Origin: an uncultured Caldithrix sp. | Lineage (GTDB): Bacteria; Calditrichota; Calditrichia; RBG-13-44-9 | NCBI GenBank assembly: GCA_964461135.1 | Contig: CAYWTB010000017.1 | Span: forward strand, 5,459-69,458 | DNA length: 64,000 nucleotides | Direction: 5' to 3' | In this document: positions 18,676 through 64,000 of the stretch, piece by piece | Position numbering within the stretch: the first letter of the stretch is position 1 | Layout: each line of letters opens with the position of its first letter | Translations under genes and position numbers: made by a program | The notes under the pieces: model-generated | Seen by the model: the letters and a program-made list of their open reading frames with translations, nothing else | Database searches by the model: none | Told to the model about the DNA's origin: nothing

Positions 18676-19815
18676 ATGAAAAATCAAGAATTAACACCCA
18701 GTTTTCGTTTTATGAAATTGCTCTGGCAAAATCGTGTGTTTATCCTAGTTTTTAGTTTCAGTTTTTTTGTTTTATCAATTATATATAGCCTTTTGCTTCC
18801 TAAGTGGTATGAAGGAAGGGTGGTTTTCATAATAAATGAAGAAAAAAGTTATTTAGGATCGTTTTCTTCATCACTTCTAGGAAATGTTGGACTGCCATCA
18901 AATTTTCTTGGAGATTTTGCTAAACCTCTTTCAGAACAGTACATTAATTTTTTACAATCCCATTCAATTTTGGATAAAATTGATTCTATTTATAAACTTC
19001 AGGAAGCTTATGAAATAAAATATAGGAAAAGTTTTTATAGAAGAATATTATCTAATGCTAGATTCGTGGATAATAATGATAATTCAATAACTATCTATTT
19101 TTATTACAAAGAGGATCCTGATAAAGCTGCTTCAATTGCAAATTCATTTTTTATTGAATTAGAAAAATTAGTATCAAAATTACGATCAGAACGAAATGAA
19201 AAAATAAAAAATTTTCTTGAAAGAACTTATACAGAAACAATTGATAAGTTAGTTGATGCTGAAGAAAAAATGAAAAAATTTCAGTTAAATAATAAAGTTT
19301 ATTCTTTAGATGATCAAGTTAAGTTAGTAATTCAAAATATTTCAGAATTGGAAGCACAAAGAATTCAATTAGCCATTCAGAAAGAATACTTGGAATCATC
19401 TGGAGCAAAAAATACGGTAGAATATCAAGCACTGATTAATAAGATTATCATATTAAATAAATCAATCAACTCGCTTAAAACAAAAAGCGAATATATTGAT
19501 GTGCCTTTAGAGGATTTACCTTTAAAAGGACTCGAATATATAAGAATATTGAGAGAAATTAAAATTAGAGAAAAAATCTTGGAATTCGTAGTTCCACAAT
19601 TAGAAAATGCAAGGATGCAAGAATTCAGAATATCATCTACCCTTCAATTATTGGATTCCGCAGTTCCTCAAGACTATAAATCGAAACCCAAAAGAATAGT
19701 TATTGTTTTTGTGGTTACTTTTTTTGCCTTCACATTCTCAATTTTATTTTTACTAATAAAAGCGTTTATTAGAAATAACCGGCGTTCATTAACCCAAGTT
19801 TTTAATAAAGAATGA
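18676..19815 (+). CDS. wzz: Polysaccharide chain-length determinant (Wzz/PCP-family, no kinase domain)
   Basis: N-terminal TM after LLWQNRVFILVF…, a long coiled periplasmic region, and a C-terminal TM (PKRIVIVFVVTFFAFTFSILFLL). Confidence 0.65.
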   Translation: MKNQELTPSFRFMKLLWQNRVFILVFSFSFFVLSIIYSLLLPKWYEGRVVFIINEEKSYLGSFSSSLLGNVGLPSNFLGDFAKPLSEQYINFLQSHSILDKIDSIYKLQEAYEIKYRKSFYRRILSNARFVDNNDNSITIYFYYKEDPDKAASIANSFFIELEKLVSKLRSERNEKIKNFLERTYTETIDKLVDAEEKMKKFQLNNKVYSLDDQVKLVIQNISELEAQRIQLAIQKEYLESSGAKNTVEYQALINKIIILNKSINSLKTKSEYIDVPLEDLPLKGLEYIRILREIKIREKILEFVVPQLENARMQEFRISSTLQLLDSAVPQDYKSKPKRIVIVFVVTFFAFTFSILFLLIKAFIRNNRRSLTQVFNKE

Positions 19816-21101
19816 TTTACTTGAATGTTTCTCGTCAGGGGGCAAAGCTTTTTCCTTTAATACTCTTTATTATAATTTGGGTGTCTCAGGTATTTTTTTA
19901 TTTTTTAAATCCCTTTTATTATAAAGAAATAACTTTCTATACTTGGATTATTATTTTCATAGGTGTTTTTTCTTTTATTACTGGATATCTAACCTCATAT
20001 TTCTTCAAGTTTGATCGTCATTTGGTTATCAACAACTCAAACGATACTGTTAATAAATTAAATTTCCCAAGCTCAAGAATAAGAAATTTAATAATTCATA
20101 TTTCCATAATTGTTATATTTGCTATGTTTTTTGATGTAGTATTAATAATAAGTACGATTAAAAAATATAATCTCGATCCAACGAATATTTTTTGGTATAG
20201 GTTAATTTATTCCACTTTTGCACGTAATTTAACTCGCTGGAATTTTATTCACTCAATTTTGAACTATTTAATTACACTAAATTTAGTCTCAATAATTTTA
20301 TCAGCTATTTATTCCGCGATATATAAAGGCAAAATGTCTGTAACCATGTTACCGTTATTGCTTGCATTAACGTTCAGTATTATAACCCTGCAGCGATATC
20401 TTTTTACAAGTAGTTTAATTATATGGCTAATCAGTTTTTTCTTTGTTAGTTTCAATTTACCACTGTCTGAAAGAATAAAAACATTAAAGAGATTTGTCGA
20501 ATATATTGGCATTATGGTAATAATTATAGCTACTATCCTAATTCTAATAATAAGCATAAGAATTAATATAGATTTAGGAGGTGTTAAAACAGTTGAATTG
20601 ACAAAATACGTATTTAAAAGTATTTATACTTATTTTGTTGGAAACATTGTTGCTTTAGACAATTACTTACAGAGGGACATTTTGTACAAATATGGTGCAG
20701 AAATTTTTCAGAGTGTCTTCAAATGGCTCGGTAGACTTGGTTTAATAGAGTCAAAATCTATTTCAACACAATATTTAGAATTTACAGATATAGGAAATTA
20801 TACTGTAAATACTTATACATTTATTAGAAATTTCTATGAAGATTTTGGTGAAGCAAGCCTTGTAACATATGCTTATTTATGGGGCTTTATTACTTCTTAT
20901 GCCGTTGAAAAATTATTTCAGAAATTTTCCTTTGCACGTTTGTTTATTGCTAGTTATTTAGTCTTTGCTCTTTTTATTTCTTTTTTTAGTTTTGTACTTT
21001 TAAATATCTCAATGTTTTTTCTTCTAGTAATTTATTCTTGGATCATTGGAAAAATTCTTACCAATCAATATTTAAATAAACTATCAAATGAGTATCACTG
21101 A
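19812..21101 (+). CDS. Wzy-like repeat-unit polymerase / O-antigen-ligase-like polytopic membrane protein
   Basis: 429 aa, about 10-12 TM helices, low complexity. 4-nt ATGA overlap with wzz. Located between Wzz and Wzx. Assignment is by context and topology only. Confidence 0.45.
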   Translation: MIYLNVSRQGAKLFPLILFIIIWVSQVFFYFLNPFYYKEITFYTWIIIFIGVFSFITGYLTSYFFKFDRHLVINNSNDTVNKLNFPSSRIRNLIIHISIIVIFAMFFDVVLIISTIKKYNLDPTNIFWYRLIYSTFARNLTRWNFIHSILNYLITLNLVSIILSAIYSAIYKGKMSVTMLPLLLALTFSIITLQRYLFTSSLIIWLISFFFVSFNLPLSERIKTLKRFVEYIGIMVIIIATILILIISIRINIDLGGVKTVELTKYVFKSIYTYFVGNIVALDNYLQRDILYKYGAEIFQSVFKWLGRLGLIESKSISTQYLEFTDIGNYTVNTYTFIRNFYEDFGEASLVTYAYLWGFITSYAVEKLFQKFSFARLFIASYLVFALFISFFSFVLLNISMFFLLVIYSWIIGKILTNQYLNKLSNEYH

Positions 21102-22512
21102 ACACCAAATTAAATCTTTTCTCAAATTTACTTCAGTTAATATTTTAAGAAATGCTTTAGGTTTAATTAGATCTAAAGTAATTGCTATTTGGTACGGTGG
21201 TCTGGGTGTTGGGATATTGGGTCAATATGTATCATTCTTTAATCTGCAATCAAAGATTTTATTATTTGGAGCAACAGCTAGCATTATTAATTCTCATAAT
21301 AAGGCGATTAGAGAAAGCTGGAATAAACAGCTCGTTCTTTTATATCATTTATTAATAATTTTAGTAACAAACATTTTAGGTGGTTTATTCTTAATTTTAT
21401 TCTCCAATAAAATTTCAACCTTGATTTTTGATGGATTAGTTGATAACAATTTTGTTTTTTTAATGGTTTTAGTCGGATTAATCTACTCAGCTGGGATGTA
21501 TTTAGAATTATTGGTACAGGCTAGAAAAGAGTTTTCAAAATTATTTAAAGGACAAGTCTACTCTTCAATATTTGCAATTTTAACACTAATTCCGATAATT
21601 TTTATATTTGGCATTAAGGGTATTTTATATAATTTTATAATATTTTATTTAATAAGTTTTCTTTTTTTTTTAAGTACATCCGCACTTGATATTCATGAAC
21701 TTTCCAGAAATCACGTTCAATTAAATATTAAAATATTAAAATATATATTAAAGGTTTCTTTAATTGATATTGCTAGATCGATTTTAGTGATTGGTTCACT
21801 ATTAGTTGGGAGAATTTTCATAGTTAAAATAATTGGAATACAAAAAACAGGTTATTTACAATCCATTCTTAGTATTACCAATTATATAAATGTTCTATCA
21901 ATGGGTTTTATGATATATTATTTTCCAACAATAAGTTCAAAATTAAAAACAGATGATTTTTCAAATGAATTTAATTCTGGTTTTAAACTACTTATTTATT
22001 TTGTATTTCCTTTTATTATTTTAATTTATTTATTCCCTGATATCTTTATAAAATTATTATATACAAAAGAGTTCTTAATAGTAAAAAATTTTTTACCCAT
22101 ATTAATGATTAGTAAAGTGATAGAAATATACAATTATTTTTATGGTATAAATTTTTTAGGAACAAATAGATTAGGAAATTTTATTTTATTAGATGGTCTT
22201 AAATCAATTATTTTTCTTTTATTATTAGCAATTTTATTGTCTAAATTTCAAATAATAGGAATTGTATATTCTTTTCTTGGCGCTGAAATTACAGCCTTCT
22301 TATCTCTAAAAATAATCTTAAAAAAGATCACTCAACTTCAATTAAAAAGGGAAAATAATATCTTGTATTATAAAATTCTATTACTATTAATTTTATTAAA
22401 TTTCCTTGATATTAATATTTTCCTTAAAATTCTTATATCCTTATCGTATTCCATTTTGCTTCTCGATCTAAAAACTTATTTTGAATTAATTTCAATATTT
22501 AGAAAAAAATAA
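21088..22512 (+). CDS. wzx: Wzx flippase (MOP/polysaccharide biosynthesis protein family)
   Basis: 474 aa, about 12-14 TM helices. N-terminal KFTSVNILRNALGLIRSKVIAIWYGGLGVGILGQY is typical of Wzx. Confidence 0.7.
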   Translation: MSITEHQIKSFLKFTSVNILRNALGLIRSKVIAIWYGGLGVGILGQYVSFFNLQSKILLFGATASIINSHNKAIRESWNKQLVLLYHLLIILVTNILGGLFLILFSNKISTLIFDGLVDNNFVFLMVLVGLIYSAGMYLELLVQARKEFSKLFKGQVYSSIFAILTLIPIIFIFGIKGILYNFIIFYLISFLFFLSTSALDIHELSRNHVQLNIKILKYILKVSLIDIARSILVIGSLLVGRIFIVKIIGIQKTGYLQSILSITNYINVLSMGFMIYYFPTISSKLKTDDFSNEFNSGFKLLIYFVFPFIILIYLFPDIFIKLLYTKEFLIVKNFLPILMISKVIEIYNYFYGINFLGTNRLGNFILLDGLKSIIFLLLLAILLSKFQIIGIVYSFLGAEITAFLSLKIILKKITQLQLKRENNILYYKILLLLILLNFLDINIFLKILISLSYSILLLDLKTYFELISIFRKK

Positions 22513-50328: not shown

Positions 50329-51654
50329 ATGATTCCCATCCTTATTGTTGACAACGAAGAAAAATTTTGTAAAGTGATTAAAGCTGCACTGGAGTTAGAA
50401 AGTCTGCCAGCGGCTTATGTTGTTTCCGGAGAACAGGCTTTGAAGTGGCTAAAAAACAATTCAACCGAATTGATTATTTCTGATCTGCGCATGGAGGGGA
50501 TGGATGGTCTGGAGCTTTTAAAAAAGGTGAAAATACATAATCCGGAAATAGAAATAATCATTATGACGGCTTTTGCTTCTCAGAAATCAGCTATTGATGC
50601 CTTAAAAGAAGGAGCAGCTGATTATCTGATAAAACCATTTGAGATGGATGAATTACTCCTGCGCATTCGAAGAATCCTGCAACAGAAAAAACTCCGGACA
50701 GAAAACCGGCAATTGCGGTCTCAGGTCGGTAAACCGATTCTTTATGATGGAATGATTGGCCGCAGTAAACCAATGATGGAAGTCTATCAGCTGATTCATA
50801 AAGCTGCCAGTACTGATTCCACTGTTTTGATAACCGGGGAGAGTGGAACTGGTAAGGAACTGGTAGCAGAAATTATCCATAATCAAAGTTCCCGAAAAAA
50901 TGAGCACTTTATAGCAATAAATTGTGCAGCAATACCCGAAAACCTGCTGGAGAGTGAGCTGTTTGGCCATGAAAAGGGTGCCTTTACTGGAGCGTCTCAA
51001 AGAAAAATTGGAAAATTTGAATTAGCTGAAACAGGAACTATTTTTCTGGATGAAATTGGCGATACCAGTCTGATAATCCAGGCGAAATTATTAAGAGTCC
51101 TTCAAAAGAAAGAGATATTTCGACTGGGGGGAAACGAGCGTATCAACGTCAATACACGGGTGATTGCTGCAACCAATCGCGAGATGGATAAGATGGTTAG
51201 AGAAAAAAAATTTCGTCAGGATTTATTTTACCGGCTGCATGTATTTCCTATTAAACTTCCGTCACTTCGGGAAAGAAAAGAAGATATTCCCGATCTCGTT
51301 AATCATTTTATAAAAAGATATGATATTATAGGAATTCACAAAGAGGCTCTAAAGGTTTTAATGGAATATGACTGGCCGGGCAATATCAGGGAATTACAAA
51401 ACGTTATTGAAAGAGCCGCAATTCTGGCCAATTCCCTTATAACCCGGGAAGATCTTCCGGTGTTTAAAACCGACCAAGATCATGAGTCTTTTGAATTTGA
51501 TATTCCTCTGAAAGGGTTTGAACTGGTTCAATTTGAAAGATATTTAATTAAACAAGCCATCCGGAAAGCCGGTGGGAATAAAACTCTGGCTGCTCAGATT
51601 CTTGGAATAACCCGCCGCAGACTTTATTCCATGATGAAAACTCTCCAAATTTAA
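50329..51654 (+). CDS. Sigma-54-dependent response regulator (NtrC/Fis family bEBP)
   Basis: Receiver domain with phospho-acceptor D in IISDLRMEGMDG. AAA+ domain with Walker A GESGTGKE, the GAFTGA motif and the ESELFGHEKGAFTGA sensor. C-terminal Fis-type HTH. Confidence 0.9.
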   Translation: MIPILIVDNEEKFCKVIKAALELESLPAAYVVSGEQALKWLKNNSTELIISDLRMEGMDGLELLKKVKIHNPEIEIIIMTAFASQKSAIDALKEGAADYLIKPFEMDELLLRIRRILQQKKLRTENRQLRSQVGKPILYDGMIGRSKPMMEVYQLIHKAASTDSTVLITGESGTGKELVAEIIHNQSSRKNEHFIAINCAAIPENLLESELFGHEKGAFTGASQRKIGKFELAETGTIFLDEIGDTSLIIQAKLLRVLQKKEIFRLGGNERINVNTRVIAATNREMDKMVREKKFRQDLFYRLHVFPIKLPSLRERKEDIPDLVNHFIKRYDIIGIHKEALKVLMEYDWPGNIRELQNVIERAAILANSLITREDLPVFKTDQDHESFEFDIPLKGFELVQFERYLIKQAIRKAGGNKTLAAQILGITRRRLYSMMKTLQI

Positions 51655-54569: not shown

Positions 54570-56088
54570 ATGCCAAAAAACACATTATGGAAATATGGAT
54601 TAATTCTGATTTTGCTGGGAATTATTATCGGGCTGGTGATTTCCGCTAATTTTAATTTTGCACTGAACAGTAAAGCCTTACACTCAGTTCAGGAAGAAAA
54701 TGCGGCCGAATCACAGGTGTCAAACCCGAATAGTTCCGCTATATTAACAATTCAGGATCTCAGTAACGCGTTTGCAGATGTAGCAGAACAGGTAAATCAG
54801 TCTGTAGTTACAATATTTACAGAGACCATCGTTAAACAAAAGAGATCCCCCTTTTTTCAGTTCCCTTTTGAGCAATTCTTTGGTGAGGATTTCCAGCATT
54901 TTTTCCAAATCCCTCCAAATCGTGAACGGAAACAAAAGACCTATGGACTGGGCTCTGAAGTTATCGTTACGGAAGAGGGGATTATAATTACCAACAATCA
55001 TGTTATTGATGGAGCAGACAATATTAAAGTCCGTCTAATGGATAATAAAGAATATACTGCAGAGGTAAAAGGAGTTGGTCCCCGTTCGGATTTGGCCATC
55101 CTGGAAATTAAAGTGAAAGACCTTCCCTCTGTGAGATTCGGATAAAACGCGGGTTAGAGAATGGGTATTGGCTGTCGGATCTACACTTTCCCCTGAGCTT
55201 GCTCATACTATTACCTCGGGCATAATAAGTGCGAAGGAAAAAAGTGGATTGTTTGACACTGGTCAATATGAGGATTTTATTCAAACTGATGCGGCCATCA
55301 ATCCGGGAAATTCGGGAGGTGCACTGGTAAATCTCAGAGGTGAACTGATTGGAATAAATACAGCCATCACCAGCCAAAACGGTGGGTTTATTGGAATTGG
55401 CTTCGCTATTCCTTCCAATCTGGCACTCAAAGTTATGAATGATATTCTTGAAAAGGGCAAAATTGTCCGTGGCTGGCATGGTGTTTATATCCAGGATGTG
55501 AATCAAGAACTTGCTACTGCACTGGATTTGAAAAATAATTCGGGAGTATTAGTTTCCGGGATCCAGGAAAACCGTCCTACTGCAAAGGCTGGATTAAAAA
55601 CGGAAGATGTTATTATTAAGTTTAATGACCGGACAGTAAAAAATTCTACTGAACTACGAAATCTGGTTGGTGCTTCAGATCCGGGAGAAAAAGTGAAATT
55701 GACAATAATTCGCAATGAAAAAGAAAAAGACGTAGACATAACATTAGGAGAATTACAGGAAGATACCTCTCTTGCGACACAAAACAGTCCCGAGGTAATT
55801 AAAAATATTGGAATTGAAATAGCCAATATTACCAGGGAATTGAGAGAAAAATTCAATTTAAATATTGATAATGGAGTAGTTATTACGGAAGTTTCCCCCG
55901 GGAGTGTTGCTGCCCGGTCAGGTTTAAGATCTGGTGATATCATACTCGAAATTAACAGAAAGAATGTTAAAGATATTTCGTCTTATAACAATATAATAAA
56001 AAATGTCAAAGCAGGTGGTTCCCTCCTTTTTTATGTGCATAGGAGAGAAGCCAAGATATTCATTGCATTTTCCTTACCAGATAATTAA
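54570..56088 (+). pseudogene. htrA: HtrA/DegP-family serine protease interrupted by a 1-nt frameshift
   Basis: ORF 54570..55145 carries catalytic His (TNNHVIDGA) and Asp (DLAILEI) and ends …LPSVRFG*. The +1 frame from 55135 reads DSDKTRVREWVLAVGS…TSGIIS…GNSGGAL (catalytic Ser) followed by two PDZ domains, through 56088. The junction is within 55130-55145. Confidence 0.7.
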
Positions 56089-56292: not shown

Positions 56293-57387
56293 ATGGGTAA
56301 GCGCAGGATAGGTATATTGACAGGAGGAGGAGATTGCCCGGGATTAAACGCCGTCATAAGAGGAGTGACTAAAACAGCTATCACCAAATACGGGATGGAA
56401 GTCATTGGATTTTATGATGGCTTCCAGGGATTAATAGAGAACCGGTTCGCTATATTAAATTATGAGAGTGTATCCGGCATTTTAACTCAGGGTGGCACCA
56501 TACTTGGGACGAGTAATAAAGCCAATCCATTTGAACATATTGTTATGGAGAACGGGAAGCATATTAGCAAAGATGTCTCAGATGATACAATGGAATTATA
56601 TAAAGACCTGGCTCTTGATGCTCTTATCACCGTAGGGGGAGATGGTACTATGACAATTGCCGGAATGCTGGCTGATAAAGGGGCAAATGTGGTTGGTGTT
56701 CCCAAAACCATAGATAAGGATCTGATGGAAACCGATACCACTTTTGGGTTTGATACCGCACGTAACATCTGTACGGAAGCGATAGACCGGTTGCATAGCA
56801 CCGCCCAATCTCATCATCGTGTGATGATTGTGGAAGTAATGGGACGGAATGCAGGTTGGCTGGCGCTGGAATCAGGGATAGCCGGGGGTGGTGACATTAT
56901 ACTTTTGCCTGAAATTCCATATGACATGGAAGAAATTATACGGGTGGTCAGGCAGCGCAGCCGTTTCGGAAAACGATTCAGTATTGTTGTGGTTTCAGAA
57001 GGTTGCAGGCCGGAGGGAGGAGAACAGGTTGTCCGAAAAGTGATACATGACAGCCCGGAAAAAATCCGTTTAGGAGGCGTCGCACACGGGATTGCCAATG
57101 AAATAGAGGAAGCCACCCAGATTGAGTGCAGAGTAGCCATTCTGGGTCATCTGCAGCGAGGAGGAACACCATCACCCTTGGATCGCATTCTTGCCACACA
57201 GTTTGCAGTTAAAGCTATGCATCTGGTTATTAGCAATCAATTTAACCAGATGGTTTCCATCAGAGGAAATGAAATTACCTCCGTTCCCATTGAAAAGGTA
57301 ATGGGACGGCAAAAACTGGTTCCCTTGGATTCGGGTTTAATTGAAGCAGGGCTTTCGGTAGGCACCAGTTTCGGGAAAAAACTTTAA
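56293..57387 (+). CDS. pfkA: 6-phosphofructokinase
   Basis: GILTGGGDCPGLNAVIRG and TVGGDGT motifs. 364 aa. Confidence 0.88.
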   Translation: MGKRRIGILTGGGDCPGLNAVIRGVTKTAITKYGMEVIGFYDGFQGLIENRFAILNYESVSGILTQGGTILGTSNKANPFEHIVMENGKHISKDVSDDTMELYKDLALDALITVGGDGTMTIAGMLADKGANVVGVPKTIDKDLMETDTTFGFDTARNICTEAIDRLHSTAQSHHRVMIVEVMGRNAGWLALESGIAGGGDIILLPEIPYDMEEIIRVVRQRSRFGKRFSIVVVSEGCRPEGGEQVVRKVIHDSPEKIRLGGVAHGIANEIEEATQIECRVAILGHLQRGGTPSPLDRILATQFAVKAMHLVISNQFNQMVSIRGNEITSVPIEKVMGRQKLVPLDSGLIEAGLSVGTSFGKKL

Positions 57388-57404: not shown

Positions 57405-59192
57405 TTATCCTATTGCATCATTTTTTGAAATTCTTTTTACAATAAGGAGGGTAATGTCATCGTACTGAGGTGTTCCTTCTGCGAAACGGGATATTGAATC
57501 TACTATGTTTTCCGCCAGCTCACGAGATCCTGTGTTATGGTTGCTCTTAATGAGGGTTTTTAATCGCTCCTCTCCAAACTCTTCTTCCCTGCTGTTGAGG
57601 GCTTCATTTACCCCGTCTGTATAGCACACCAATATTTCAGAGGCCTGTAATTTTATATGTCCCGTATTATAAGTATAATCGGGAAGCATACCCAGGATAA
57701 TTCCTCCCTCTTCCAGCAAAGAAACCGATCCATCGTTATGCAGGAGAATTGGTGGATTATGTCCGGCATTGACATAGGAAAATTCATTATTCTGATTGTC
57801 AAGGATACCCACAAAAAAGGTGATGTACTTATCCAGGTCAGTGTTCTGGTATATTAATTGATTCAGGCGCGATACCACCTGGTCAAGTCTCAGATTTTCT
57901 GAAAGAATAGTGTGCAGGCCGGCCTGGAGATTTGCCATGATAAGAGCCGCCGGAACACTCTTGCCTGATACATCTCCGATGGCCAGGGCACATTTATACT
58001 CAGATATGGGGATGATGTCAAAATAATCCCCCCCCACTTCTTTACTTGATTTATTTAATCCCCAGATATCATAACCTTTAATGGTAATGATTTCTCTGGG
58101 AAGTAATTTTTTCTGAATGGTTTTTGCCACCTGCAGTTCCTGTTCTATGCGTTGCTTCTCAAGGGTTTCACGGAACAAGCGAGCATTTTCCATTGAAATA
58201 ACAGCCTGACTGACAATAGTACTTAAAAATTCCAGATCAATATTGACATATTCTTGCTTATTAATCTTATCACCCAGGAGGATATATCCCAGAAATTTGT
58301 TCTGATGTCGCATGGGAATAAAAACCCTGGCATTCATCATATTTAATTTTTCTTTGAGAGGAACTCTTTTCAAAGTGTCTACCAGAGAAGCTGAAGTCAG
58401 CTCCTTTAGTTCCGGTTCTTCTAAGGTCAGATCCTTGATACTTTCCTGAAGAAATCCCTTGCAGTCAATCTTCTGAATGCCATCCTGATTGCAGACAACA
58501 ATGGCATAGTGATATACCAGCATCTGCCCCATCAGGGCATAAATTAAAAGTTTTATTATCTTTTCACTATCCAGGGTGGCAGAAAGACCCTGAGCAATGT
58601 CAAACAAAGTCTTCAATTGTTGAATTCTCTGATCGAGTTGTTTGTTTATATTCTGTATTTCATCGACTTTAAGAGCATTTTCTATTGACCCGGCAGAAAG
58701 ATTCGCTAAGGAAGTTAAAAAATCCTTTTCTTCTTCTGTAAAAGGTTGTTGATTTAACTTTTGTCCATAAAAGAGCACTCCGATGAGCTTTTCCTGGGAA
58801 TAGATGGGAATCATTGAGGCCAGTTGATAAGTGTCAGTCAGATGAAGCAATTTTTCATATTGATGTTCATGAATATCTGATCTGAGAAGATATGTTTTAT
58901 TTTTTGGAATATCACTTTCCTTAAAAGTAACTGTTTCAATTTCTCCTGATAGTCCTTTCCATAATTTTGGCACAAAGTGATGATCAGATTTGAGAAAAAA
59001 AACTCCTCTGGAGACCATAAGTCGTCCCATGGGGATGAGAAGAATATTATTTAGAACATTTTTTAAATCAAGAGATGAGTTAAGTATCTGGCTAATTTCA
59101 AATAATGATGAAAGTTCAATTAATCTCTGGTTTATCGTTTGGACATTCTCGGTATGATATTTATCGGAAAGGTAATCGTAAAATCCTGGCAT
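57405..59192 (-). CDS. GAF-GAF-PP2C (SpoIIE/RsbU-family) protein serine phosphatase
   Basis: C-terminal PP2C motifs EVGGDYFDII and the GD/AGH region. Two N-terminal GAF-like domains. Confidence 0.8.
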   Translation of the reverse strand: MPGFYDYLSDKYHTENVQTINQRLIELSSLFEISQILNSSLDLKNVLNNILLIPMGRLMVSRGVFFLKSDHHFVPKLWKGLSGEIETVTFKESDIPKNKTYLLRSDIHEHQYEKLLHLTDTYQLASMIPIYSQEKLIGVLFYGQKLNQQPFTEEEKDFLTSLANLSAGSIENALKVDEIQNINKQLDQRIQQLKTLFDIAQGLSATLDSEKIIKLLIYALMGQMLVYHYAIVVCNQDGIQKIDCKGFLQESIKDLTLEEPELKELTSASLVDTLKRVPLKEKLNMMNARVFIPMRHQNKFLGYILLGDKINKQEYVNIDLEFLSTIVSQAVISMENARLFRETLEKQRIEQELQVAKTIQKKLLPREIITIKGYDIWGLNKSSKEVGGDYFDIIPISEYKCALAIGDVSGKSVPAALIMANLQAGLHTILSENLRLDQVVSRLNQLIYQNTDLDKYITFFVGILDNQNNEFSYVNAGHNPPILLHNDGSVSLLEEGGIILGMLPDYTYNTGHIKLQASEILVCYTDGVNEALNSREEEFGEERLKTLIKSNHNTGSRELAENIVDSISRFAEGTPQYDDITLLIVKRISKNDAIG

Positions 59193-59263
59193 GAAAAATC
59201 CTTCGGGAAAGTAAATAAGTATGAAATGGGGAAAAATTCTAATATTTTAAAACAGAAGAATTA

Positions 59264-59716
59264 TTAACAGTCCTCGCTAATGTTACTTTTGTATTTGGTC
59301 ATTCGAACTCTGTTGCGAACACCGGGTTTTATATTATACTCAACTTTATCCATTAATGTCTTAATGAGGTAGAGTCCCAAACCGCCTCTCTTCATCTTTT
59401 TGAGATAGACATCCATTTCTGGTGCTTTAATATGTTCCGGATCAAATCCTTTCCCACTATCGATAACATCTATTTCGAGGCGGTCACTATAGGTTGTCAC
59501 CTGCACCAAAATAAATTTCTCATTATCGCTGGATCCCTTGTAGGCATGTTCAATTACATTGGTACTGGCTTCATCCACTGCCAGCTCAATACGATGGATA
59601 TTTTCATCAGAAAAACCCATATTCTGAGCAATTCCGGCCACAAAATCTCTGATGATCTCGAGATTTGCGGTATCGATGGGAATTCGTAATTGAAATTTCT
59701 TGGTTTTTATTGGCAT
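59264..59716 (-). CDS. Anti-sigma-factor-type serine kinase (RsbW/SpoIIAB-like, HATPase_c)
   Basis: N-box ELAVDEASTNVIEHAY and G-box DSGKGFD. 150 aa. Confidence 0.8.
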   Translation of the reverse strand: MPIKTKKFQLRIPIDTANLEIIRDFVAGIAQNMGFSDENIHRIELAVDEASTNVIEHAYKGSSDNEKFILVQVTTYSDRLEIDVIDSGKGFDPEHIKAPEMDVYLKKMKRGGLGLYLIKTLMDKVEYNIKPGVRNRVRMTKYKSNISEDC

Positions 59717-59744
59717 AATTAAGTCTGCGTTTAGTGCACTTCTC

Positions 59745-60101
59745 CTATTTGGTGGTTTTCTGAAATTTTTTTAAAGCAGCATCTTCCGAATCATAGAATT
59801 CATATAAACTGGGGAAACCCAGCAGATCAAAGACTTTAAACACTTTAGGTGCCGCACAACATATTTTCAGATCTCCACCATTATTTCTGATTTCTTCTAT
59901 GACTCCCATAAATACACCCAGTCCGGCAGAACTTATATATTGTAATCCATCCAGATTCACAATGATATTATAATTTTTCTCTTCAATTATCTTCTCTAAC
60001 TCACCTTCAAATTGGGGCGCTGTATGAGCATCCAAAAAGCCCTGGATATTCAAAACTTTCACTTTATTCTGATCTCTTCGAAAGACTTCGAATTTCTCCA
60101 T
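59745..60101 (-). CDS. STAS-domain anti-sigma-factor antagonist (RsbV/SpoIIAA-like)
   Basis: 118 aa. Phosphorylatable Ser context LDGLQYISSAGLGVF. Confidence 0.85.
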   Translation of the reverse strand: MEKFEVFRRDQNKVKVLNIQGFLDAHTAPQFEGELEKIIEEKNYNIIVNLDGLQYISSAGLGVFMGVIEEIRNNGGDLKICCAAPKVFKVFDLLGFPSLYEFYDSEDAALKKFQKTTK

Positions 60102-60289
60102 TCAAATCTCCTCACTAATCAATTTTAAATACGAAAATTCCTGCCCAAAAGTTTTCTACTTTAAATTGTACAGTGCTTTAAACACAGTAATTGAAGATAT
60201 TTACGTTTTCCTAATTTAATGCAATGTGTGCCCATAAGCTATTAATTTCCTGATTCTAAATCCAAATATTCCTTTTTAGCTCTGTTTCT

Positions 60290-62386
60290 TCAAATATTTT
60301 TAAAATTTCGACAATTTTTCAGTATCACAAAAGTCAAATCATCATGTAAAGGAGTCAGTCCACAAAATTCCACTACTGTATTAAGTAATTTATCTTTTAT
60401 CTCTTCTGCACTGGAATTGCTACATTCTTTGATTAGTCCAGCCAAACGTTCTTCTCCAAATTCTACCCCTTCTCCATTTCGGGCTTCCGTCAGCCCATCA
60501 GTATAAAATATTACAGTACCCTGACCTTTCATGGGAATGGAATATTCTTCCAGAATAGAATTAAATTTATCACCGGGATCCAATCCGATTCCGATACCGG
60601 GGGTCAGAATATTTTGGGGTTCCTGACCATTCCCACTGCAATACAGAACAGGTGTGTGACCGGCCCGGGCAAATATTAATCTTTCTTTTTCAGGATTTAT
60701 TTTGGCAATTATGGCACTGATAAATGAACGCCTTTCAATATTAGGATATAGCATCCGGTTTATATCGCAAGCCAGAGTGTAGGGGGTTTTGTGACTTTTT
60801 GCCAGCGTCTGGATTATTCCTTTAAATTCCGCCATATAAAGGGCTGCAGACGTTCCCTTACCGGAAACATCTCCAATAATAATTCCCGGATAGCCATCGG
60901 CAAAATGAAAGAAGTCATAATAATCTCCCCCAACTTCATAGGCACTGAGACAGAGGGCATCTATTGCAAAATTGTTAATGGTGGGAAGGGTTTGGGGAAG
61001 GAGTTTCAACTGAACATCCCGGGCCACTTTTAATTCCTGTTCCAGTCTCTCCCGTTCAATAGATTCCTTAAGCAGGCTGGTATTTTCTATGGCAACGGAG
61101 GCCTGGTTAGCCACTCCCTGAATCAGAGAGACATCATCAATATCAAAAGTGTATTCCTTGTTTTTGGTTGCATATATAATGCCCATCAACTGGCGTCTAT
61201 TTCCGAATAAAGGAGCGGCTATTATAGTACGGGCATCCTTTTTCCAGTTCAGCAGGGACTTCAAATAACGATGATGAGGAATATCATTGATCAGAATGGC
61301 TTCCTTCTTTTTAACAATCATCTCGTTCAATCCGTCCAGGTGCAGGAGCGGTATCGATTCCAAATCATCTTTACTCAGGTGAAGTGAGGATGTTATAATA
61401 AAATTGTTCTGTTTATCGTCATACTTGGCTAACCATGTTGACTGACTTTCCAGAACCTGGGAGGTAAGTCGGGTAATTAGGGGTAGCAGATTATTTATTT
61501 TTGTTTCACTGTTGAGCATTCTACCCAGGTCATACAGAGAGTTCAATTCTTTAATTTTTCTATCAAAAGCGCGTGCTGTGGGAATCTGAAGTAGAAGTTT
61601 AAAAACTGCGAATCCGGCATAAACCAGAAGAAAAACCCACATATTAAAAGTAAGGGCAGCAATGGTTAAACTGTAAGCCGGAAGGCTTCTTCTGTAAACA
61701 ATGTCAAACAATAGGGCAATGGCCACTAATAATGGGATGCCGATAAAAAAATAAATTATTTTCTTTTTTCGAGAAAGATAAGTAATCCATTCGTTTCGAA
61801 AGGAAAGCATAATAACAAAGATCAGAGCAAAAGTAAAAGATATATCATTGGGAAGACTCTCGTTTGCAAACCGCAATCCACTGACCGGTTGTCTGGATAA
61901 GTAAACTGAGATGGCATTGATGGTAATAGCCAGTAGGTACAGGTTAAAAATAATAGCCGTATTTCTCTTGCGTTTATAAAAAATAAATTGCTTCAGAATA
62001 AAAAGGGAAGGAACCAGGGTAAATGTTGCAATAAAAGCGGTGATAGTTGAAACTACCACAGCACTGGGTGATCTATAAACGGGGGGAAACCCGCTGCTGT
62101 ATGCAGGATCAAATATTTTATCAATTAAAAGAGATATTAGAAAATTGGCTGCAATAAGAATTGCCAGCCGAGCCAGATTCTGTTGGATAGTTAATTCATC
62201 TAAGTGTAGTTTTGCCTTTATGTAGTAATAACTCAAAAAAATAAGGCTGAAAATAATAAGTTCACGGAAAAATGAAATATCTCCAACCGAAATACTGCTA
62301 TAAAAAGAAAATAGATCAATAAAAAAAATAAGCAGTACCGCTAGTGGAATCAGAACATAAAGGATTTTTGCTAATCGTTTGACCAT
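60290..62386 (-). CDS. Membrane-integrated sensor phosphatase: about 8 TM helices + GAF + PP2C (SpoIIE family)
   Basis: N-terminal about 300 aa is polytopic. Has a GAF-like middle domain. C-terminal PP2C motifs EVGGDYYDFF…GDVSGKG…TDGLTEA. Confidence 0.75.
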   Translation of the reverse strand: MVKRLAKILYVLIPLAVLLIFFIDLFSFYSSISVGDISFFRELIIFSLIFLSYYYIKAKLHLDELTIQQNLARLAILIAANFLISLLIDKIFDPAYSSGFPPVYRSPSAVVVSTITAFIATFTLVPSLFILKQFIFYKRKRNTAIIFNLYLLAITINAISVYLSRQPVSGLRFANESLPNDISFTFALIFVIMLSFRNEWITYLSRKKKIIYFFIGIPLLVAIALLFDIVYRRSLPAYSLTIAALTFNMWVFLLVYAGFAVFKLLLQIPTARAFDRKIKELNSLYDLGRMLNSETKINNLLPLITRLTSQVLESQSTWLAKYDDKQNNFIITSSLHLSKDDLESIPLLHLDGLNEMIVKKKEAILINDIPHHRYLKSLLNWKKDARTIIAAPLFGNRRQLMGIIYATKNKEYTFDIDDVSLIQGVANQASVAIENTSLLKESIERERLEQELKVARDVQLKLLPQTLPTINNFAIDALCLSAYEVGGDYYDFFHFADGYPGIIIGDVSGKGTSAALYMAEFKGIIQTLAKSHKTPYTLACDINRMLYPNIERRSFISAIIAKINPEKERLIFARAGHTPVLYCSGNGQEPQNILTPGIGIGLDPGDKFNSILEEYSIPMKGQGTVIFYTDGLTEARNGEGVEFGEERLAGLIKECSNSSAEEIKDKLLNTVVEFCGLTPLHDDLTFVILKNCRNFKNI

Positions 62387-63651
62387 TATTCAATATATAC
62401 TTTTATCGGATCATATATCTGGTTATTATTCGACAACCTCGTGCCGCTGCTATCATATAAGACAATATTATCAGAATACCGTTGCACCAGAATTAACGAA
62501 TGATCATAAGGATTTATTCCAATGTCATCTACACTGCCGCTTAGATTCGGCAGTTCTAATTGACGATCTCCGGAAAGAGAAAGTTGCACTGCCCGGCAAG
62601 AATTAGAGGTCAGAAATTCTCCCATCCAGAAATAGTTTCTACCAACAGGTTTCCTCAGCAGGGTATAATTTCCCTCAACAGTTATCTGGTTTTGCTGATT
62701 GCTCAGTGGATCATATGAAAATACCTGGGATCTTGCAGTAATGAAATCAGTGGCAAGAATAAAAAGCGTATTGTCCTGGTAATTCATATCCTGCCCGACA
62801 TAACCGCTGTCAAAGGAAAACGTTTTGAATACACTGCCGGTAGAATTGAAAAGAGTGGTCCCATACTTACCCAGAACAGCTATTTTGGATTGCGAAATGA
62901 TATTGAGCTTAAAAAAATCCGTATTATCCAGTTTGATTGAATCTGTGATTGTTTCAATGTGTAAAAAATAGACTTCACCATTTCCGGAATCGAGGATAAT
63001 TATATTGTTGTTTTGCTGATCAAGTTTTATATCAACCGGTCTTTGAAAATCATTCTGAAAGAAGAAGTCTTCGTATCCAATATTTAAATTCAAACGGCTA
63101 ATAAGACGATATTGAGCATGGGCAAGCCAAACTTCATTATTAAGTTGATCCCAGTCCCAATTCGCCGGGGGATAATTGGTATTATATGTATTGATGGTGT
63201 GCAAAAGATCATAGGATATCTGCTTGACATTATAGCCATACCGTGATAAAATCCAAATCTTTCCCGGACCAGGTAATATTTTAACGGCCTGTGAAGGAAG
63301 ACTTTCTATATTCCCTCCCACAAGAGTAAGGCGGTAATAGTACCAACGGTTCTGCGACAATGCCGTATCGGTAAAACTGGTTGTCGTGGCGGTGAGTTCT
63401 TTATAAAGTGTAAAGTTTTTATCGTTGTCTAACGATCGATACAACCGAAAACCATCAAAATCTCTAATATCGTTGACACTCCATTTAAGTATGGCCGTAA
63501 CCTCAAGAGGTGTTATTGTGAAATTGATGGAGGGAGGAGTTTGGGAACCGGGATCAAAAAGATTTTCTTTTTGCCGATCTGAACACCTACATATAAACAG
63601 AACAGGCATCAGTGTTAAAATCCAATAAAGAAAGGCATGTATTTTTAGCAT
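62386..63651 (-). CDS. Secreted/lipoprotein with N-terminal Fn3-like domain and beta-propeller-like repeats
   Basis: Signal peptide with a Cys-containing lipobox-like segment (LFICRCS). Fn3-like segment TITPLEVTAILKWS…FRLYRS. 1-nt overlap with the downstream sensor phosphatase. Confidence 0.4.
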   Translation of the reverse strand: MLKIHAFLYWILTLMPVLFICRCSDRQKENLFDPGSQTPPSINFTITPLEVTAILKWSVNDIRDFDGFRLYRSLDNDKNFTLYKELTATTTSFTDTALSQNRWYYYRLTLVGGNIESLPSQAVKILPGPGKIWILSRYGYNVKQISYDLLHTINTYNTNYPPANWDWDQLNNEVWLAHAQYRLISRLNLNIGYEDFFFQNDFQRPVDIKLDQQNNNIIILDSGNGEVYFLHIETITDSIKLDNTDFFKLNIISQSKIAVLGKYGTTLFNSTGSVFKTFSFDSGYVGQDMNYQDNTLFILATDFITARSQVFSYDPLSNQQNQITVEGNYTLLRKPVGRNYFWMGEFLTSNSCRAVQLSLSGDRQLELPNLSGSVDDIGINPYDHSLILVQRYSDNIVLYDSSGTRLSNNNQIYDPIKVYIE

Positions 63652-63677: not shown

Positions 63678-64000
63678 TTATTTGTTCAGGAGAATATTTC
63701 TAATATCCGTGAAAACGGCCTTAACCGGCTGCAGACCATTGACCTGGTAAAAAATATTCTTATCCTGATAGTAGGAAATGACAGGTTCGGTCTGTTCGCG
63801 ATATACTTTTAAACGGTTTTGAATAGTATCTTCCCTGTCATCATCCCTCTGAATAATTTTACCTTCGCACTTGGTACAATGGCCGTCAGCAGGTGGTGGA
63901 TTGAATATTACATTATAGACCTTCCCACAGTTTGAACAAATCCTGCGGCTGGTAAGCCTGAGAATAATTTCATCTTCCGGAACAAATATTTCAATCACTT
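63678..64000 (-). CDS. adk: Adenylate kinase (C-terminal part; N-terminus lies beyond the window end)
   Basis: Zinc-lid CSNCGKVYN…CTKCEGKIIQRDDD and C-terminal …IQNRLKVYREQTEPVISYY. The M at 63998 is internal. Confidence 0.85.
   Translation of the reverse strand, partial: VIEIFVPEDEIILRLTSRRICSNCGKVYNVIFNPPPADGHCTKCEGKIIQRDDDREDTIQNRLKVYREQTEPVISYYQDKNIFYQVNGLQPVKAVFTDIRNILLNK

What the first reader, a model, noticed from the sequence alone, without database searches (positions are those of the whole stretch)
57405..63651. A partner-switching operon has two PP2C phosphatases but no sigma factor, and is led by a secreted Fn3/beta-propeller lipoprotein
The minus-strand order is: lipoprotein (62386-63651), polytopic-GAF-PP2C (1-nt overlap with the lipoprotein), STAS antagonist, RsbW-like kinase, then cytoplasmic GAF-GAF-PP2C. 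This is the RsbU/RsbV/RsbW logic, but no SigB/SigF-like gene is present. The output is therefore presumably a non-sigma target of the kinase/STAS pair. The upstream lipoprotein is co-oriented with and overlaps the 8-TM phosphatase, which makes it a candidate extracytoplasmic ligand-binding partner of that sensor. The operon thus carries two distinct input branches, one membrane and one cytoplasmic GAF.
Basis: partly seen in the sequence, partly recalled or inferred. Interest (0 to 1): 0.55.

Follow-up and report, generated by a model that had tools for sequence, protein, structure and literature searches.

The report
Sigma-less partner-switch module with lipoprotein sensor
This is a conserved signalling gene cluster of Calditrichota and KSB1 sediment bacteria in which two or more sensor phosphatases, one of them membrane-bound and paired with a secreted lipoprotein, act on a single kinase/antagonist protein switch; the switch's target is not encoded nearby, so this is a new variant of a well-known regulatory scheme rather than a new kind of system.

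Summary
All five minus-strand genes exist at the stated coordinates with the stated domains and the TAATG one-base overlap.

The lipoprotein models confidently (pLDDT 92) as Fn3 plus a 7-bladed beta-propeller. The first phosphatase has 8 TM helices with outward loops of only about 8-17 aa.

The cluster belongs to a large uncharacterised family in Calditrichota and KSB1: 83 non-redundant loci were examined, out of at least 468 metagenomic relatives. The STAS-kinase-GAF-PP2C core is essentially universal. Relatives carry up to four or five differently sensored PP2C phosphatases.

No sigma-70-family gene recurs near the module, so "no sigma in cis" holds. The inference "therefore a non-sigma output" is not established.

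New finding: the long gap before the STAS gene carries a conserved ECF-sigma-type promoter motif (TAAC-T tract-N-CGTA). It is unique in the window and present in most close relatives. The core therefore probably has its own alternative-sigma-dependent promoter, and the five genes may not be one transcript.

The lipoprotein/membrane-phosphatase pairing is well supported by a conserved stop/start overlap and by a remote homologous pair. The lipoprotein's best-conserved part is a family-specific membrane-proximal motif, C-x-E-R-x-R-x-N-P-F-D-P.

Verdict: new variant of a known kind, moderate interest.

The parts
63678..64000 (-). 3' part of adenylate kinase (adk). A conserved upstream neighbour, probably co-transcribed with the lipoprotein.
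   Evidence: ADK_lid and ADK hits. The gap to the lipoprotein start is 26 nt. adk lies directly upstream in all close relatives, with gaps of mostly 3-34 nt.
62386..63651 (-). Lipoprotein: signal peptide, invariant Cys23, conserved tether, Fn3 domain (about aa 39-125; nt 63277-63537) and a 7-bladed beta-propeller (about aa 130-421; nt 62389-63264).
   Evidence: invariant Cys; canonical lipoboxes in relatives; pLDDT 92; propeller and Fn3 fold matches at 8-13% identity.
63550..63585 (-). Membrane-proximal tether motif C23-S-D-R-Q-K-E-N-L-F-D-P. Family consensus: C-x-[ED]-R-x-[RK]-x-N-P-[FLI]-D-P.
   Evidence: It is the most conserved segment of the lipoprotein across 29 homologues: 0.76, against 0.48 for Fn3 and 0.41 for the propeller. 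It has low pLDDT, so it is flexible. Within all sequence held, the motif is found only in this family.
60290..62386 (-). Membrane phosphatase: 8-TM module (aa 1-268; nt 61583-62386), GAF (aa 296-436; nt 61079-61501) and SpoIIE/PP2C (aa 496-698; nt 60293-60901).
   Evidence: The 8-TM module is rare (54 representatives among 1.84 billion proteins), and every full-length hit is about 670-757 aa with the module at the N-terminus; the ten sampled carry GAF, and nine of them also SpoIIE.
60102..60289 (-). 188-nt intergenic gap between the membrane phosphatase and STAS.
   Evidence: The gap is 85-225 nt in 9 close loci. No terminator-like site lies in the gap on this strand. No Rfam match lies in the gap; the single match in the scanned region is weak (E = 0.24), on the opposite strand and inside the phosphatase ORF. 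There is no stable fold (z = +0.9).
60126..60156 (-). ECF-sigma-type promoter-like motif GAAAACTTTTGGGCAGGAATTTTCGTATTTA: AAC, a T tract, 17-nt spacing, then CGTA. The CGTA lies 32 nt upstream of the STAS ATG.
   Evidence: Conserved columns in the alignment. Fixed position in 9 of 10 close loci plus the distant L013. Unique in the 64-kb window, 0.06 expected. No other strong PWM hit in 264 kb. Present in 18 of 73 metagenome loci against 1.4 expected. The consensus features match PMC5758882.
59745..60101 (-). STAS-domain antagonist (RsbV/SpoIIAA-like) with the phosphorylatable Ser in Y-I-S57-S58-A-G-L-G.
   Evidence: The YISSAGLG and KVFKVFDLLGFP motifs are conserved. It is the slowest-evolving component, at 58-83% identity.
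59264..59716 (-). RsbW-like serine kinase (HATPase_c_2) with intact N, G1 and G2 boxes.
   Evidence: RsbW models at 116 and 104 bits, both below their cut-offs; (closest solved structure is RsbW 6m36, E = 3e-20).
57405..59192 (-). Cytoplasmic GAF-GAF-SpoIIE/PP2C phosphatase.
   Evidence: The catalytic motifs GGDYFD, GDVSGKS, YTDGV and DDITLL can be read directly. It follows the kinase in 42 of 46 loci. A convergent pfk gene at 56293-57387 ends the cluster.

Best explanation
This is a multi-input partner-switching module that is conserved in Calditrichota and KSB1.

Inferred from the families, not shown here:
- The RsbW-like kinase phosphorylates the STAS protein on the conserved Ser (S57 or S58).
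- Two SpoIIE/PP2C phosphatases remove that phosphate in response to different signals.
- Dephosphorylated STAS binds the kinase. This frees the kinase's target, or STAS acts on a target itself.

Input branch 1 is an 8-TM-GAF-PP2C whose outward loops are too short to form a sensor domain. It is translationally coupled to a periplasm-facing Fn3/7-blade-propeller lipoprotein. I propose that the lipoprotein is its extracytoplasmic co-sensor and docks through the conserved Cys-proximal tether motif (inference).

Input branch 2 is a cytoplasmic GAF-GAF-PP2C, presumably gated by a small ligand.

The output component is encoded elsewhere in the genome. I rate a non-sigma or otherwise unidentified target (STAS or the kinase acting as the effector, as in SypA, RbaV and HmpV) as slightly more likely than a sigma factor encoded in trans.

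Transcription is probably split into two units: adk-lipoprotein-membrane phosphatase, and STAS-kinase-GAF-PP2C. The second unit would start from an internal ECF-sigma-type promoter, which would place the level of the switch core under an alternative sigma factor such as an envelope-stress sigma.
For: Domains and intact catalytic or phospho-acceptor motifs.

Conservation of the core over 83 non-redundant loci:
- The kinase follows STAS in 70 of 72 loci. In the other two, the coordinates show a kinase ORF overlapping STAS by more than the script's window allowed.
- The GAF-PP2C follows the kinase in 42 of 46 loci.
- The 8-TM PP2C lies immediately upstream of STAS in 38 of 48 loci.

Multi-phosphatase variants with REC, HAMP, PDZ-TM-GAF and 815-aa polytopic sensor modules.

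Lipoprotein coupling:
- The overlap is kept in 9 of 9 loci.
- The gene after the lipoprotein is the 8-TM PP2C in 19 of 26 loci.
- A remote homologous pair exists (hhalign 99.2%, E = 7e-20).
- The outward loops are short.
- The tether motif is conserved and family-specific.

No sigma in cis.

Internal promoter; literature match (PMC5758882).

Precedents for sigma-less modules and STAS-as-output: PMC8256260 and PMC3999984.
Against: No biochemical step was tested, and the target is unknown.

The outward loops of the 8-TM module are no better conserved than its helices, so there is no sequence signature of a docking surface on the phosphatase side.

In 12 of 38 loci with enough upstream sequence no lipoprotein is adjacent. 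In others it is coupled to a different PP2C or sits next to STAS.

The promoter is inferred from sequence alone, and read-through from upstream is not excluded because no terminator was found in the gap.

The source genome outside the window could not be examined.
Confidence: 0.6

Rival explanations
1. Canonical anti-sigma logic with the sigma factor encoded in trans. The RsbW-like kinase sequesters an alternative sigma factor encoded elsewhere. The conserved promoter in front of STAS-kinase-PP2C is that sigma factor's autoregulatory promoter, mirroring the sigmaB-dependent internal promoter upstream of rsbV in the B. subtilis sigB operon (that parallel is from my own knowledge).
For: - The kinase is closest to RsbW among NCBIfam models and solved structures.
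- A non-housekeeping, alternative-sigma-type promoter sits exactly where the sigmaB operon has its feedback promoter.
- rsbV/rsbW homologues separated from their cognate sigma factor are documented (PMC3999984).
Against: - The motif is of ECF type (AAC / T tract / CGTA). To my knowledge, RsbW/SpoIIAB-type kinases are known to bind group-3 sigma factors, or sigma66 in Chlamydia, and not ECF sigma factors.
- No sigma gene recurs near about 85 loci in two phyla.
- The motif is absent from the more divergent loci, where the genes are tightly packed. It is therefore a clade-specific addition and not intrinsic to the module.
- The RsbW equivalog cut-offs are not reached.
Confidence: 0.3
2. The lipoprotein is functionally unrelated to the switch. 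It belongs to an adk-led housekeeping transcript, and its adjacency to the phosphatase is inherited synteny.
For: - adk lies 3-34 nt upstream in most close relatives.
- Twelve of 38 loci lack an adjacent lipoprotein.
- The outward loops of the phosphatase carry no special conservation.
Against: - The stop/start overlap with a PP2C gene is kept across lipoprotein identities of 30-63%.
- The pair recurs in a remote lineage with no adk and no STAS or kinase nearby (L016/L017).
- In KSB1-type loci the lipoprotein is still inside the module, although it is coupled to another membrane PP2C.
- The lipoprotein profile gave no strong hit outside such modules.
Confidence: 0.07
3. The conserved motif before STAS is not a promoter. 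It is a binding site for a transcription factor or another cis element, and the five genes are read as one transcript.
For: - No experimental transcription start is available.
- No terminator lies in the gap.
- The more divergent relatives do without the motif.
Against: - The motif has two blocks with fixed 16-17-nt spacing. It is not palindromic.
- Its distance to the start codon varies from 19 to 66 nt, but in most loci (24-34 nt) it leaves room for a roughly 20-nt leader containing the AGGAG Shine-Dalgarno.
- All three published ECF promoter features are present.
Confidence: 0.15

Closest known systems
Bacillus subtilis RsbU/RsbP-RsbV-RsbW-sigmaB partner switch
   Same: It has a STAS antagonist with a phospho-Ser and an RsbW-like kinase. 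Two differently sensored PP2C phosphatases converge on a single antagonist, as RsbU (environmental) and RsbP (energy) do. An internal alternative-sigma-type promoter sits upstream of the antagonist gene.
   Different: - No sigma gene lies after the kinase.
- There are no RsbR/S/T stressosome genes.
- The phosphatases use 8-TM-GAF and GAF-GAF sensor modules in place of the RsbU N-domain and the PAS domain.
- The promoter is of ECF type, not sigmaB type.
- The NCBIfam RsbW equivalog cut-offs are not reached (116 vs 145 bits).
SpoIIE-SpoIIAA-SpoIIAB (polytopic membrane PP2C acting on a STAS protein)
   Same: A multi-pass membrane protein carrying a C-terminal SpoIIE-family PP2C domain is encoded in a module with a STAS protein and an anti-sigma-type kinase.
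   Different: It has 8 TM helices plus GAF, whereas SpoIIE has 10 TM helices plus an FtsZ-binding region (from my own knowledge). TIGR02865 is far below its cut-off. The host is not a sporulating lineage, and there is no sigmaF.
Sigma-less or non-canonical partner switches: Vibrio SypE/SypA, Rhodobacter RbaVWY, Nostoc HmpUVW, Bordetella BtrUVW, Pseudomonas SiaABC and HsbR/HsbA, Chlamydia RsbUVW
   Same: These also have a kinase, a STAS protein and a PP2C without an adjacent sigma gene, and the output acts through STAS or through an unidentified target (PMC8256260; PMC3999984; the list). From my own knowledge, Chlamydia RsbU is likewise a membrane sensor PP2C.
   Different: - None is described with a translationally coupled Fn3/propeller lipoprotein.
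- None has this 8-TM module.
- None has the up to four or five phosphatases seen in KSB1-type loci.
- SiaA and RssB models score far below their cut-offs.
- The host phyla are different.
Accessory-lipoprotein-dependent envelope sensors (NlpE-CpxA, RcsF-IgaA); recalled from knowledge, not tested
   Same: The concept is the same: a lipoprotein supplies the extracytoplasmic sensing surface for a membrane signal transducer that has little periplasmic domain of its own.
   Different: The output enzymes differ (histidine kinase or phosphorelay versus PP2C), and there is no sequence or fold relationship. The interaction is only inferred here.
Beta-propeller surface lipoproteins such as Bacteroides BtuG, and archaeal YVTN propeller / PKD surface proteins
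   Same: The fold is the same: a 7-bladed propeller lipoprotein with an Ig-like domain (Foldseek TM 0.55-0.60).
   Different: Identity is only 8-12%, the B12-binding context is absent, and the conserved tether motif is not a described feature of those proteins.

Membership tests
RsbV/RsbW/PP2C partner-switching module | STAS-domain antagonist with a conserved phosphorylatable Ser | tested here: met
   PF01740 at 3e-20 and TIGR00377 at 80.5 bits, above its 53.45-bit cut-off. YISSA is invariant and YISSAGLG nearly so across the 11 orthologues aligned, including the distant L013 and L014.
RsbV/RsbW/PP2C partner-switching module | HATPase_c_2 serine kinase with intact ATP-binding boxes | tested here: met
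   PF13581 at 3e-28. The motifs DEAxxNVxxHAY, DxGxGF and RGGLGLYLI are conserved.
RsbV/RsbW/PP2C partner-switching module | SpoIIE/PP2C phosphatase with its metal-binding Asp motifs | tested here: met
   PF07228 at 3e-41 and 5e-52. The GGDYYD/GGDYFD, DVSGKG/DVSGKS, TDG and DDLT/DDIT motifs are present.
RsbV/RsbW/PP2C partner-switching module | Reciprocal phosphorylation and dephosphorylation, with mutually exclusive binding of the kinase to STAS or to its target | not testable with these tools
   This needs biochemistry.
Canonical sigmaB/sigmaF operon (rsbV-rsbW-sigB or spoIIAA-AB-AC) | Cognate group-3 sigma factor gene adjacent to the kinase | tested here: not met
   The GAF-PP2C follows the kinase, and a convergent pfk ends the cluster. 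No Sigma70 domain was found in the 36 scanned window ORFs, within about 10 kb in relatives, or recurrently in about 85 loci.
Canonical sigmaB/sigmaF operon (rsbV-rsbW-sigB or spoIIAA-AB-AC) | The kinase reaches the RsbW or SpoIIAB equivalog score | tested here: not met
   NF003144: 116.3 bits against a cut-off of 145. TIGR01924: 103.8 against 155. TIGR01925: 65.5 against 135.
SpoIIE (sporulation) / SiaA / RssB phosphatase equivalogs | Reaches the NCBIfam equivalog cut-off | tested here: not met
   TIGR02865: 40.5 bits against 490.8. NF038263: 22-26 against 700. NF045505: 35-59 against 700.
Bacterial lipoprotein | N-terminal signal peptide followed by a lipobox Cys | tested here: inconclusive
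   There is a hydrophobic helix at aa 2-20 and an invariant Cys23. Many relatives have a canonical lipobox (LSGC, LTGC, ILSC). The window itself reads F-I-C-R-C, with Arg at position -1, which is non-canonical. No dedicated lipoprotein predictor was available.
Fn3 + beta-propeller extracytoplasmic protein | Fn3 fold followed by a closed multi-blade propeller | tested here: met
   The model has pLDDT 92 and 28 strands after the Fn3 domain. Foldseek matches YVTN/YWTD propellers and Fn3-propeller receptors at E = 1e-9 to 1e-12. Pfam's own fn3 and NHL hits are below threshold.
ECF-sigma-dependent promoter | AAC in the -35 element, CGT in the -10 element, about 16-17 nt between them, and optionally a T tract next to the -35 element | tested here: met
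   The window has AAC-TTTT-N13-CGTA at 60130-60153. The same motif lies at a fixed position in 9 of 10 close loci and in L013. The features are as described in PMC5758882.
ECF-sigma-dependent promoter | Transcription start downstream of the -10 element, and dependence on an ECF sigma factor | not testable with these tools
   No transcriptome data and no ECF sigma gene from this genome were available. Only one relative (L014) has a weak ECF-like ORF nearby.

The most novel reading that the evidence does not exclude
A periplasmic propeller lipoprotein gates an 8-TM PP2C through its Cys-proximal C-x-E-R-x-R-x-N-P-F-D-P tether. The resulting STAS/RsbW-type switch controls an ECF sigma factor encoded elsewhere, and that sigma factor feeds back on the switch through the conserved AAC-T tract-CGTA promoter.

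This would be an envelope-stress pathway in which an RsbW-type kinase acts as the anti-sigma factor of an ECF sigma. To my knowledge that pairing has not been described. It would also be a new lipoprotein-to-phosphatase signalling route.
Probability: 0.1. Interest if true: 0.7.

Novelty: new variant of a known kind. Interest (0 to 1): 0.42.

Why it matters
Partner switches are a major route of bacterial signalling, but they are understood almost only in Firmicutes, Actinobacteria and a few Proteobacteria.

This family is abundant in Calditrichota and KSB1, two widespread and barely cultured sediment phyla. It shows the scheme used as a hub: up to four or five sensor phosphatases converge on one STAS/kinase pair, and no sigma gene is attached.

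The analysis offers three concrete handles.
- **A candidate lipoprotein co-sensor.** It has a short, sharply conserved membrane-proximal motif that can be mutated.
- **A rare 8-TM input module.** It is found only in this architecture.
- **A conserved ECF-type promoter.** It could be used to find the controlling sigma factor and its regulon in any complete Calditrichota genome.

None of this overturns current understanding. It extends a known logic into new lineages with a new input device.

Tried and rejected
1. **Source contig.** Exact-sequence look-ups of the window's lipoprotein, its database version and the membrane phosphatase found nothing. The STAS look-up returned only a 4-kb duplicate contig. 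The source genome beyond position 64000 therefore remains unseen.

2. **Genome scans.** The scan with the single protein found nothing. A tighter alignment worked.

3. My SigB and RpoE sequences gave no hits, but they also failed the positive control, the Pfam-flagged ECF-like ORF in L014. I discarded that screen and used only Pfam-based evidence.

4. **8-TM module, word-indexed search.** It returned only four fragments. The exhaustive HMMER search replaced it.

5. **RNA element in the 188-nt gap.** There is no Rfam match within the gap and no stable fold (z = +0.9). Rejected.

6. **Bacteroidetes-type housekeeping -7 box (TAnnTTTG) as a reading of TAACTTTT.** Rejected because the final G is missing in most loci. 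Also, the motif is unique in 64 kb and has no other strong site in 264 kb, which a housekeeping promoter would not be.

7. **Sigma28-type reading (TAAAGTTT-N11-GCCGATAA, from my own knowledge).** The geometry is similar and C. abyssi has flagellar genes. However, the invariant bases are AAC and CGTA, so I rank it below the ECF reading.

8. **Extra motif hit in L008.** It lies antisense inside clpB, so it is a chance match.

9. **Tether motif as a generic lipoprotein sorting signal.** No other ORF in about 1 Mb of held sequence carries it.

10. **AFDB fold search.** The library was unavailable.

11. **Lipoprotein-phosphatase complex prediction.** Not attempted. The tool folds single chains only and returns no inter-chain contacts.

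Full report
**1. Observation**

ORFs and domains
- The five minus-strand ORFs are present at exactly the stated coordinates. The lipoprotein stop and the phosphatase start share one base, TAATG.
- Pfam and NCBIfam assign the domains as follows.
  - 60290-62386: GAF plus SpoIIE/PP2C.
  - 59745-60101: STAS.
  - 59264-59716: HATPase_c_2. Its best model is RsbW at 116 bits, below the 145-bit equivalog cut-off.
  - 57405-59192: two GAF regions plus SpoIIE/PP2C.

Functional motifs
- The catalytic and phospho-acceptor motifs are intact: GGDYYD/GGDYFD, DVSGK, TDG and DD(L/I)T in the phosphatases, YISSAGLG in STAS, and the N, G1 and G2 boxes in the kinase.
- The closest solved relative of the kinase is RsbW (6m36, E = 3e-20). 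SpoIIAB is far weaker.

Membrane phosphatase topology
- A hydropathy scan plus the positive-inside rule gives eight TM helices.
- Both termini are cytoplasmic. The outward loops are only about 8-17 residues long.

Lipoprotein
- It has only sub-threshold fn3 and NHL Pfam hits.
- With a 22-sequence alignment it models at pLDDT 92 and pTM 0.84.
- The model shows a signal helix, a low-confidence tether, an Fn3 domain and 28 strands, which makes a 7-bladed propeller.
- Foldseek matches YVTN/YWTD propellers, Fn3-propeller receptor ectodomains and Bacteroides BtuG-type surface lipoproteins at 8-13% identity.
- Cys23 is invariant, and many relatives have canonical lipoboxes. The window's own F-I-C-R-C is atypical.
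- The database start at M15 (P0001) would remove the signal peptide.

**2. Surroundings in the window**
- adk ends 26 nt upstream of the lipoprotein. A convergent pfk ends the cluster.
- The gaps are 188 nt (membrane phosphatase to STAS), 28 nt (STAS to kinase) and 71 nt (kinase to GAF-PP2C).
- Pfam scans of 36 window ORFs found rpoN (2944-4422) and a sigma54-dependent response regulator (50329-51654). They found no sigma-70-family gene.

**3. Relatives**

Lipoprotein family
- It is small and sharply bounded: 25 clusters, then a drop from E = 1e-61 to 1e-6.
- Every retrievable context with 30-63% lipoprotein identity has adk, lipoprotein, 8-TM-PP2C, STAS, kinase and GAF-PP2C in that order. No Sigma70 domain lies within about 10 kb.
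- The lipoprotein/phosphatase overlap (TAATG, ATGA or GTGA) is kept in 9 of 9 loci.
- Record titles name Caldithrix, Calditrichaceae, Calditrichaeota and KSB1.

8-TM module
- It is rare: 54 representatives among 1.84 billion proteins.
- Every full-length hit is about 670-757 aa with the module at the N-terminus. Of the ten sampled, all carry GAF and nine also SpoIIE; the tenth is a 428-aa fragment.

Distant members
- The 8-TM PP2C stays linked to a STAS gene (L013), or to STAS and the kinase (L014), without the lipoprotein.
- In L016/L017 a 420-aa protein directly upstream is a true lipoprotein homologue (hhalign 99.2%, E = 7e-20). It has the same lipobox and tether, and no STAS or kinase lies nearby.
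- The lipoprotein/8-TM-PP2C pair is therefore older than the present cluster.

Metagenome scan with the STAS alignment
- It found at least 468 relatives, of which 80 loci were kept.
- The counts over 83 non-redundant loci are:

| Feature | Loci with it | Loci with room to show it |
|---|---|---|
| Kinase directly after STAS | 70 | 72 |
| GAF-PP2C after the kinase | 42 | 46 |
| 8-TM PP2C immediately upstream of STAS | 38 | 48 |
| Lipoprotein upstream | 26 | 38 |

- In the two apparent kinase exceptions, the coordinates show a kinase ORF overlapping STAS by more than the script's window allowed.
- The gene after the lipoprotein is the 8-TM PP2C in 19 loci and a roughly 815-aa PP2C in 4.

Variant phosphatases
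- A roughly 815-aa PP2C with TM1, an outward domain of about 220 aa and a further polytopic TM region (6-9 predicted helices).
- REC-PP2C of about 385 aa, located downstream.
- HAMP-PP2C.
- PDZ-TM-GAF-PP2C.
- Some KSB1-type loci thus carry four or five phosphatases around one STAS/kinase pair.

Neighbours and evolutionary rates
- Neighbour clustering plus Pfam found rlmN, adk, nrdR, a FadL-like outer-membrane protein, Ig-like and TPR proteins, HtrA, ClpB and an M50 protease. No sigma factor recurs.
- In a batch scan of 117 sigma-sized ORFs, the Sigma70 families did not reach the table of recurrent families. The only known hit is one weak ECF-like ORF in L014.
- Relative identity to the window proteins is:

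| Protein | Identity to the window protein |
|---|---|
| STAS | 58-83% |
| Kinase | 51-75% |
| 8-TM PP2C | 47-72% |
| GAF-PP2C | 46-66% |
| Lipoprotein | 30-45% |

**4. A new feature: an internal ECF-type promoter**

The motif
- The alignment of the long gap before STAS is otherwise poorly conserved. It contains two conserved blocks, aTAACTTTT and CGTAA.
- AAC-N16/17-CGTA lies with its CGTA 27-34 nt upstream of the STAS ATG in 9 of 10 close loci. It is also present in the distant L013.
- That position leaves room for a leader of about 20 nt containing the AGGAG Shine-Dalgarno.

Specificity
- In the window the motif is at 60130-60153 on the minus strand.
- It is the only match in 64 kb on both strands, against 0.06 expected.
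- A weight matrix finds no other strong site in 264 kb.
- Among the metagenome loci, 18 of 73 unique upstream regions carry it against 1.4 expected. These are concentrated in the loci closest to the window.
- The divergent loci have the upstream PP2C and STAS tightly packed, with no gap.

Interpretation
- AAC at -35, CGT at -10 (CGTA being sigmaW-selective in B. subtilis) and a T tract next to the -35 element are the published hallmarks of ECF-sigma promoters (PMC5758882).
- The gap has no terminator on this strand, no Rfam match within it and no stable fold.
- I conclude, by inference, that the switch core in this clade has its own alternative-sigma-dependent promoter. Read-through from upstream remains possible.

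**5. The lipoprotein tether**
- Across 29 homologues, the segment right after the lipidated Cys is much better conserved than the rest. Its consensus is C-x-[ED]-R-x-[RK]-x-N-P-[FLI]-D-P.
- The scores are 0.76 for the tether, 0.48 for Fn3 and 0.41 for the propeller.
- The tether is flexible in the model.
- It occurs in no other ORF of the roughly 1 Mb of sequence held, so it is not a generic sorting signal there.
- Its position next to the membrane matches the very short outward loops of the 8-TM module.
- Those loops are not themselves unusually conserved, so docking remains a hypothesis.

**6. Mechanism**
- **Shown here:** gene content, motifs, topology, fold, synteny and the promoter-like motif.
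- **Inferred from family knowledge:** the kinase phosphorylates STAS, the PP2Cs dephosphorylate it, and dephospho-STAS switches partners.
- **Inferred from context:** the lipoprotein is a co-sensor of the membrane phosphatase, the GAF domains are ligand inputs, and the output is encoded in trans.
- **On the output:** absence of a sigma gene in cis across two phyla, and STAS being the most constrained component, favour a non-sigma or STAS-mediated output. SypA, RbaV and HmpV are precedents (PMC8256260).
- **Against that:** the RsbW-like kinase and the alternative-sigma promoter keep a sigma factor in trans well in play. Cognate sigma factors encoded away from rsbV/rsbW are documented (PMC3999984).

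**7. Comparison and novelty**
- The module works like the RsbU/RsbP-RsbV-RsbW and SpoIIE-SpoIIAA-SpoIIAB systems.
- It is not a member of the canonical sigmaB or sigmaF operons. There is no adjacent sigma gene, and the equivalog cut-offs are not reached.
- Partner switches without an adjacent sigma gene, and switches with several phosphatases, are already known.
- What is undescribed is the rare 8-TM-GAF input module, its translationally coupled Fn3/propeller lipoprotein with a conserved tether, the expansion to four or five phosphatases in KSB1-type loci, and the ECF-type promoter in front of the core.
- No paper on this system in Calditrichota turned up in the searches. The C. abyssi genome paper does not mention sigma factors or signal transduction.
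- Verdict: new variant of a known kind, moderate interest.

Noticed in passing
window 54570-56088 (+): The HtrA/DegP protease is split into two ORFs in different frames: 54570-55145 (191 aa) and 55168-56088 (306 aa). Relatives have one intact gene of about 507 aa (L001, L003, L099). This is either a frameshift pseudogene or an assembly error.
   Followed up: partly
window 62386-63651 (-), start codon: The public annotation of this protein (P0001, 407 aa) starts at M15. That leaves only 8 residues before the lipobox Cys. The family alignment and the closest relative support the longer start at 63651.
   Followed up: yes
window 2944-4422 (+) and 50329-51654 (+): rpoN (sigma54) and a REC-sigma54-activator-HTH_8 response regulator are the only sigma-related genes found in the window. 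Nothing links them to the partner switch.
   Followed up: no
L014 7893-8681 (-), also L015: A weak ECF-like sigma ORF (Sigma70_r2 5e-6, r4_2 1e-4; 263 aa) lies about 1.3 kb upstream of, and divergent from, a distant 8-TM-PP2C-STAS-kinase module. It is followed by unannotated 360-aa and 96-aa ORFs. This is the only sigma gene seen near any member. In this locus a PHP-like 543-aa protein replaces the GAF-PP2C.
   Followed up: partly
L040 519-1829, and L042, L043, L053, L096: In KSB1-type loci a FadL/TodX-like outer-membrane channel gene lies on the same strand upstream of the lipoprotein. In other such loci a Big_5 Ig-like 632-aa protein (L086 1526-3424) precedes the 815-aa PP2C. These may be further envelope components of the input branch.
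   Followed up: partly
L048 5892-6893, and L049, L058: A Peptidase_M50 (site-2 protease family) gene follows the REC-PP2C in the loci where the lipoprotein sits directly before STAS. Site-2 proteases are classic activators of ECF sigma factors. No link was tested.
   Followed up: no
L013 3166-3615, L039 7202-7726 and two other loci: nrdR (Zn-ribbon plus ATP-cone repressor) lies immediately upstream of the module in several divergent loci, where adk lies in the window's clade. In both cases a nucleotide-metabolism gene is the upstream neighbour.
   Followed up: no
L003 8128-9024 (-), L006 3095-4030 (-), L007 1-890 (-), L009 1136-2065 (-), L020 2561-3487 (-): A roughly 294-aa protein with a Por_Secre_tail (T9SS) sorting domain, encoded divergently upstream of adk, gives weak hits (E = 1e-4 to 1e-6) to the lipoprotein profile. 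It probably shares the Fn3-like part. In the window this position lies beyond base 64000.
   Followed up: no
window 19812-21101 and 21088-22512 (+): Two overlapping ORFs of 429 and 474 aa, lying near a polysaccharide-export (Poly_export/SLBB) gene, have no Pfam hit at E <= 1e-5.
   Followed up: no
L006 8380-8410 and L029 (same region): In these two close relatives the promoter-like motif is degenerate (GAAC...CCTGAAG or GAAC...TTTATAG in place of CGTA), although the gap is retained.
   Followed up: partly
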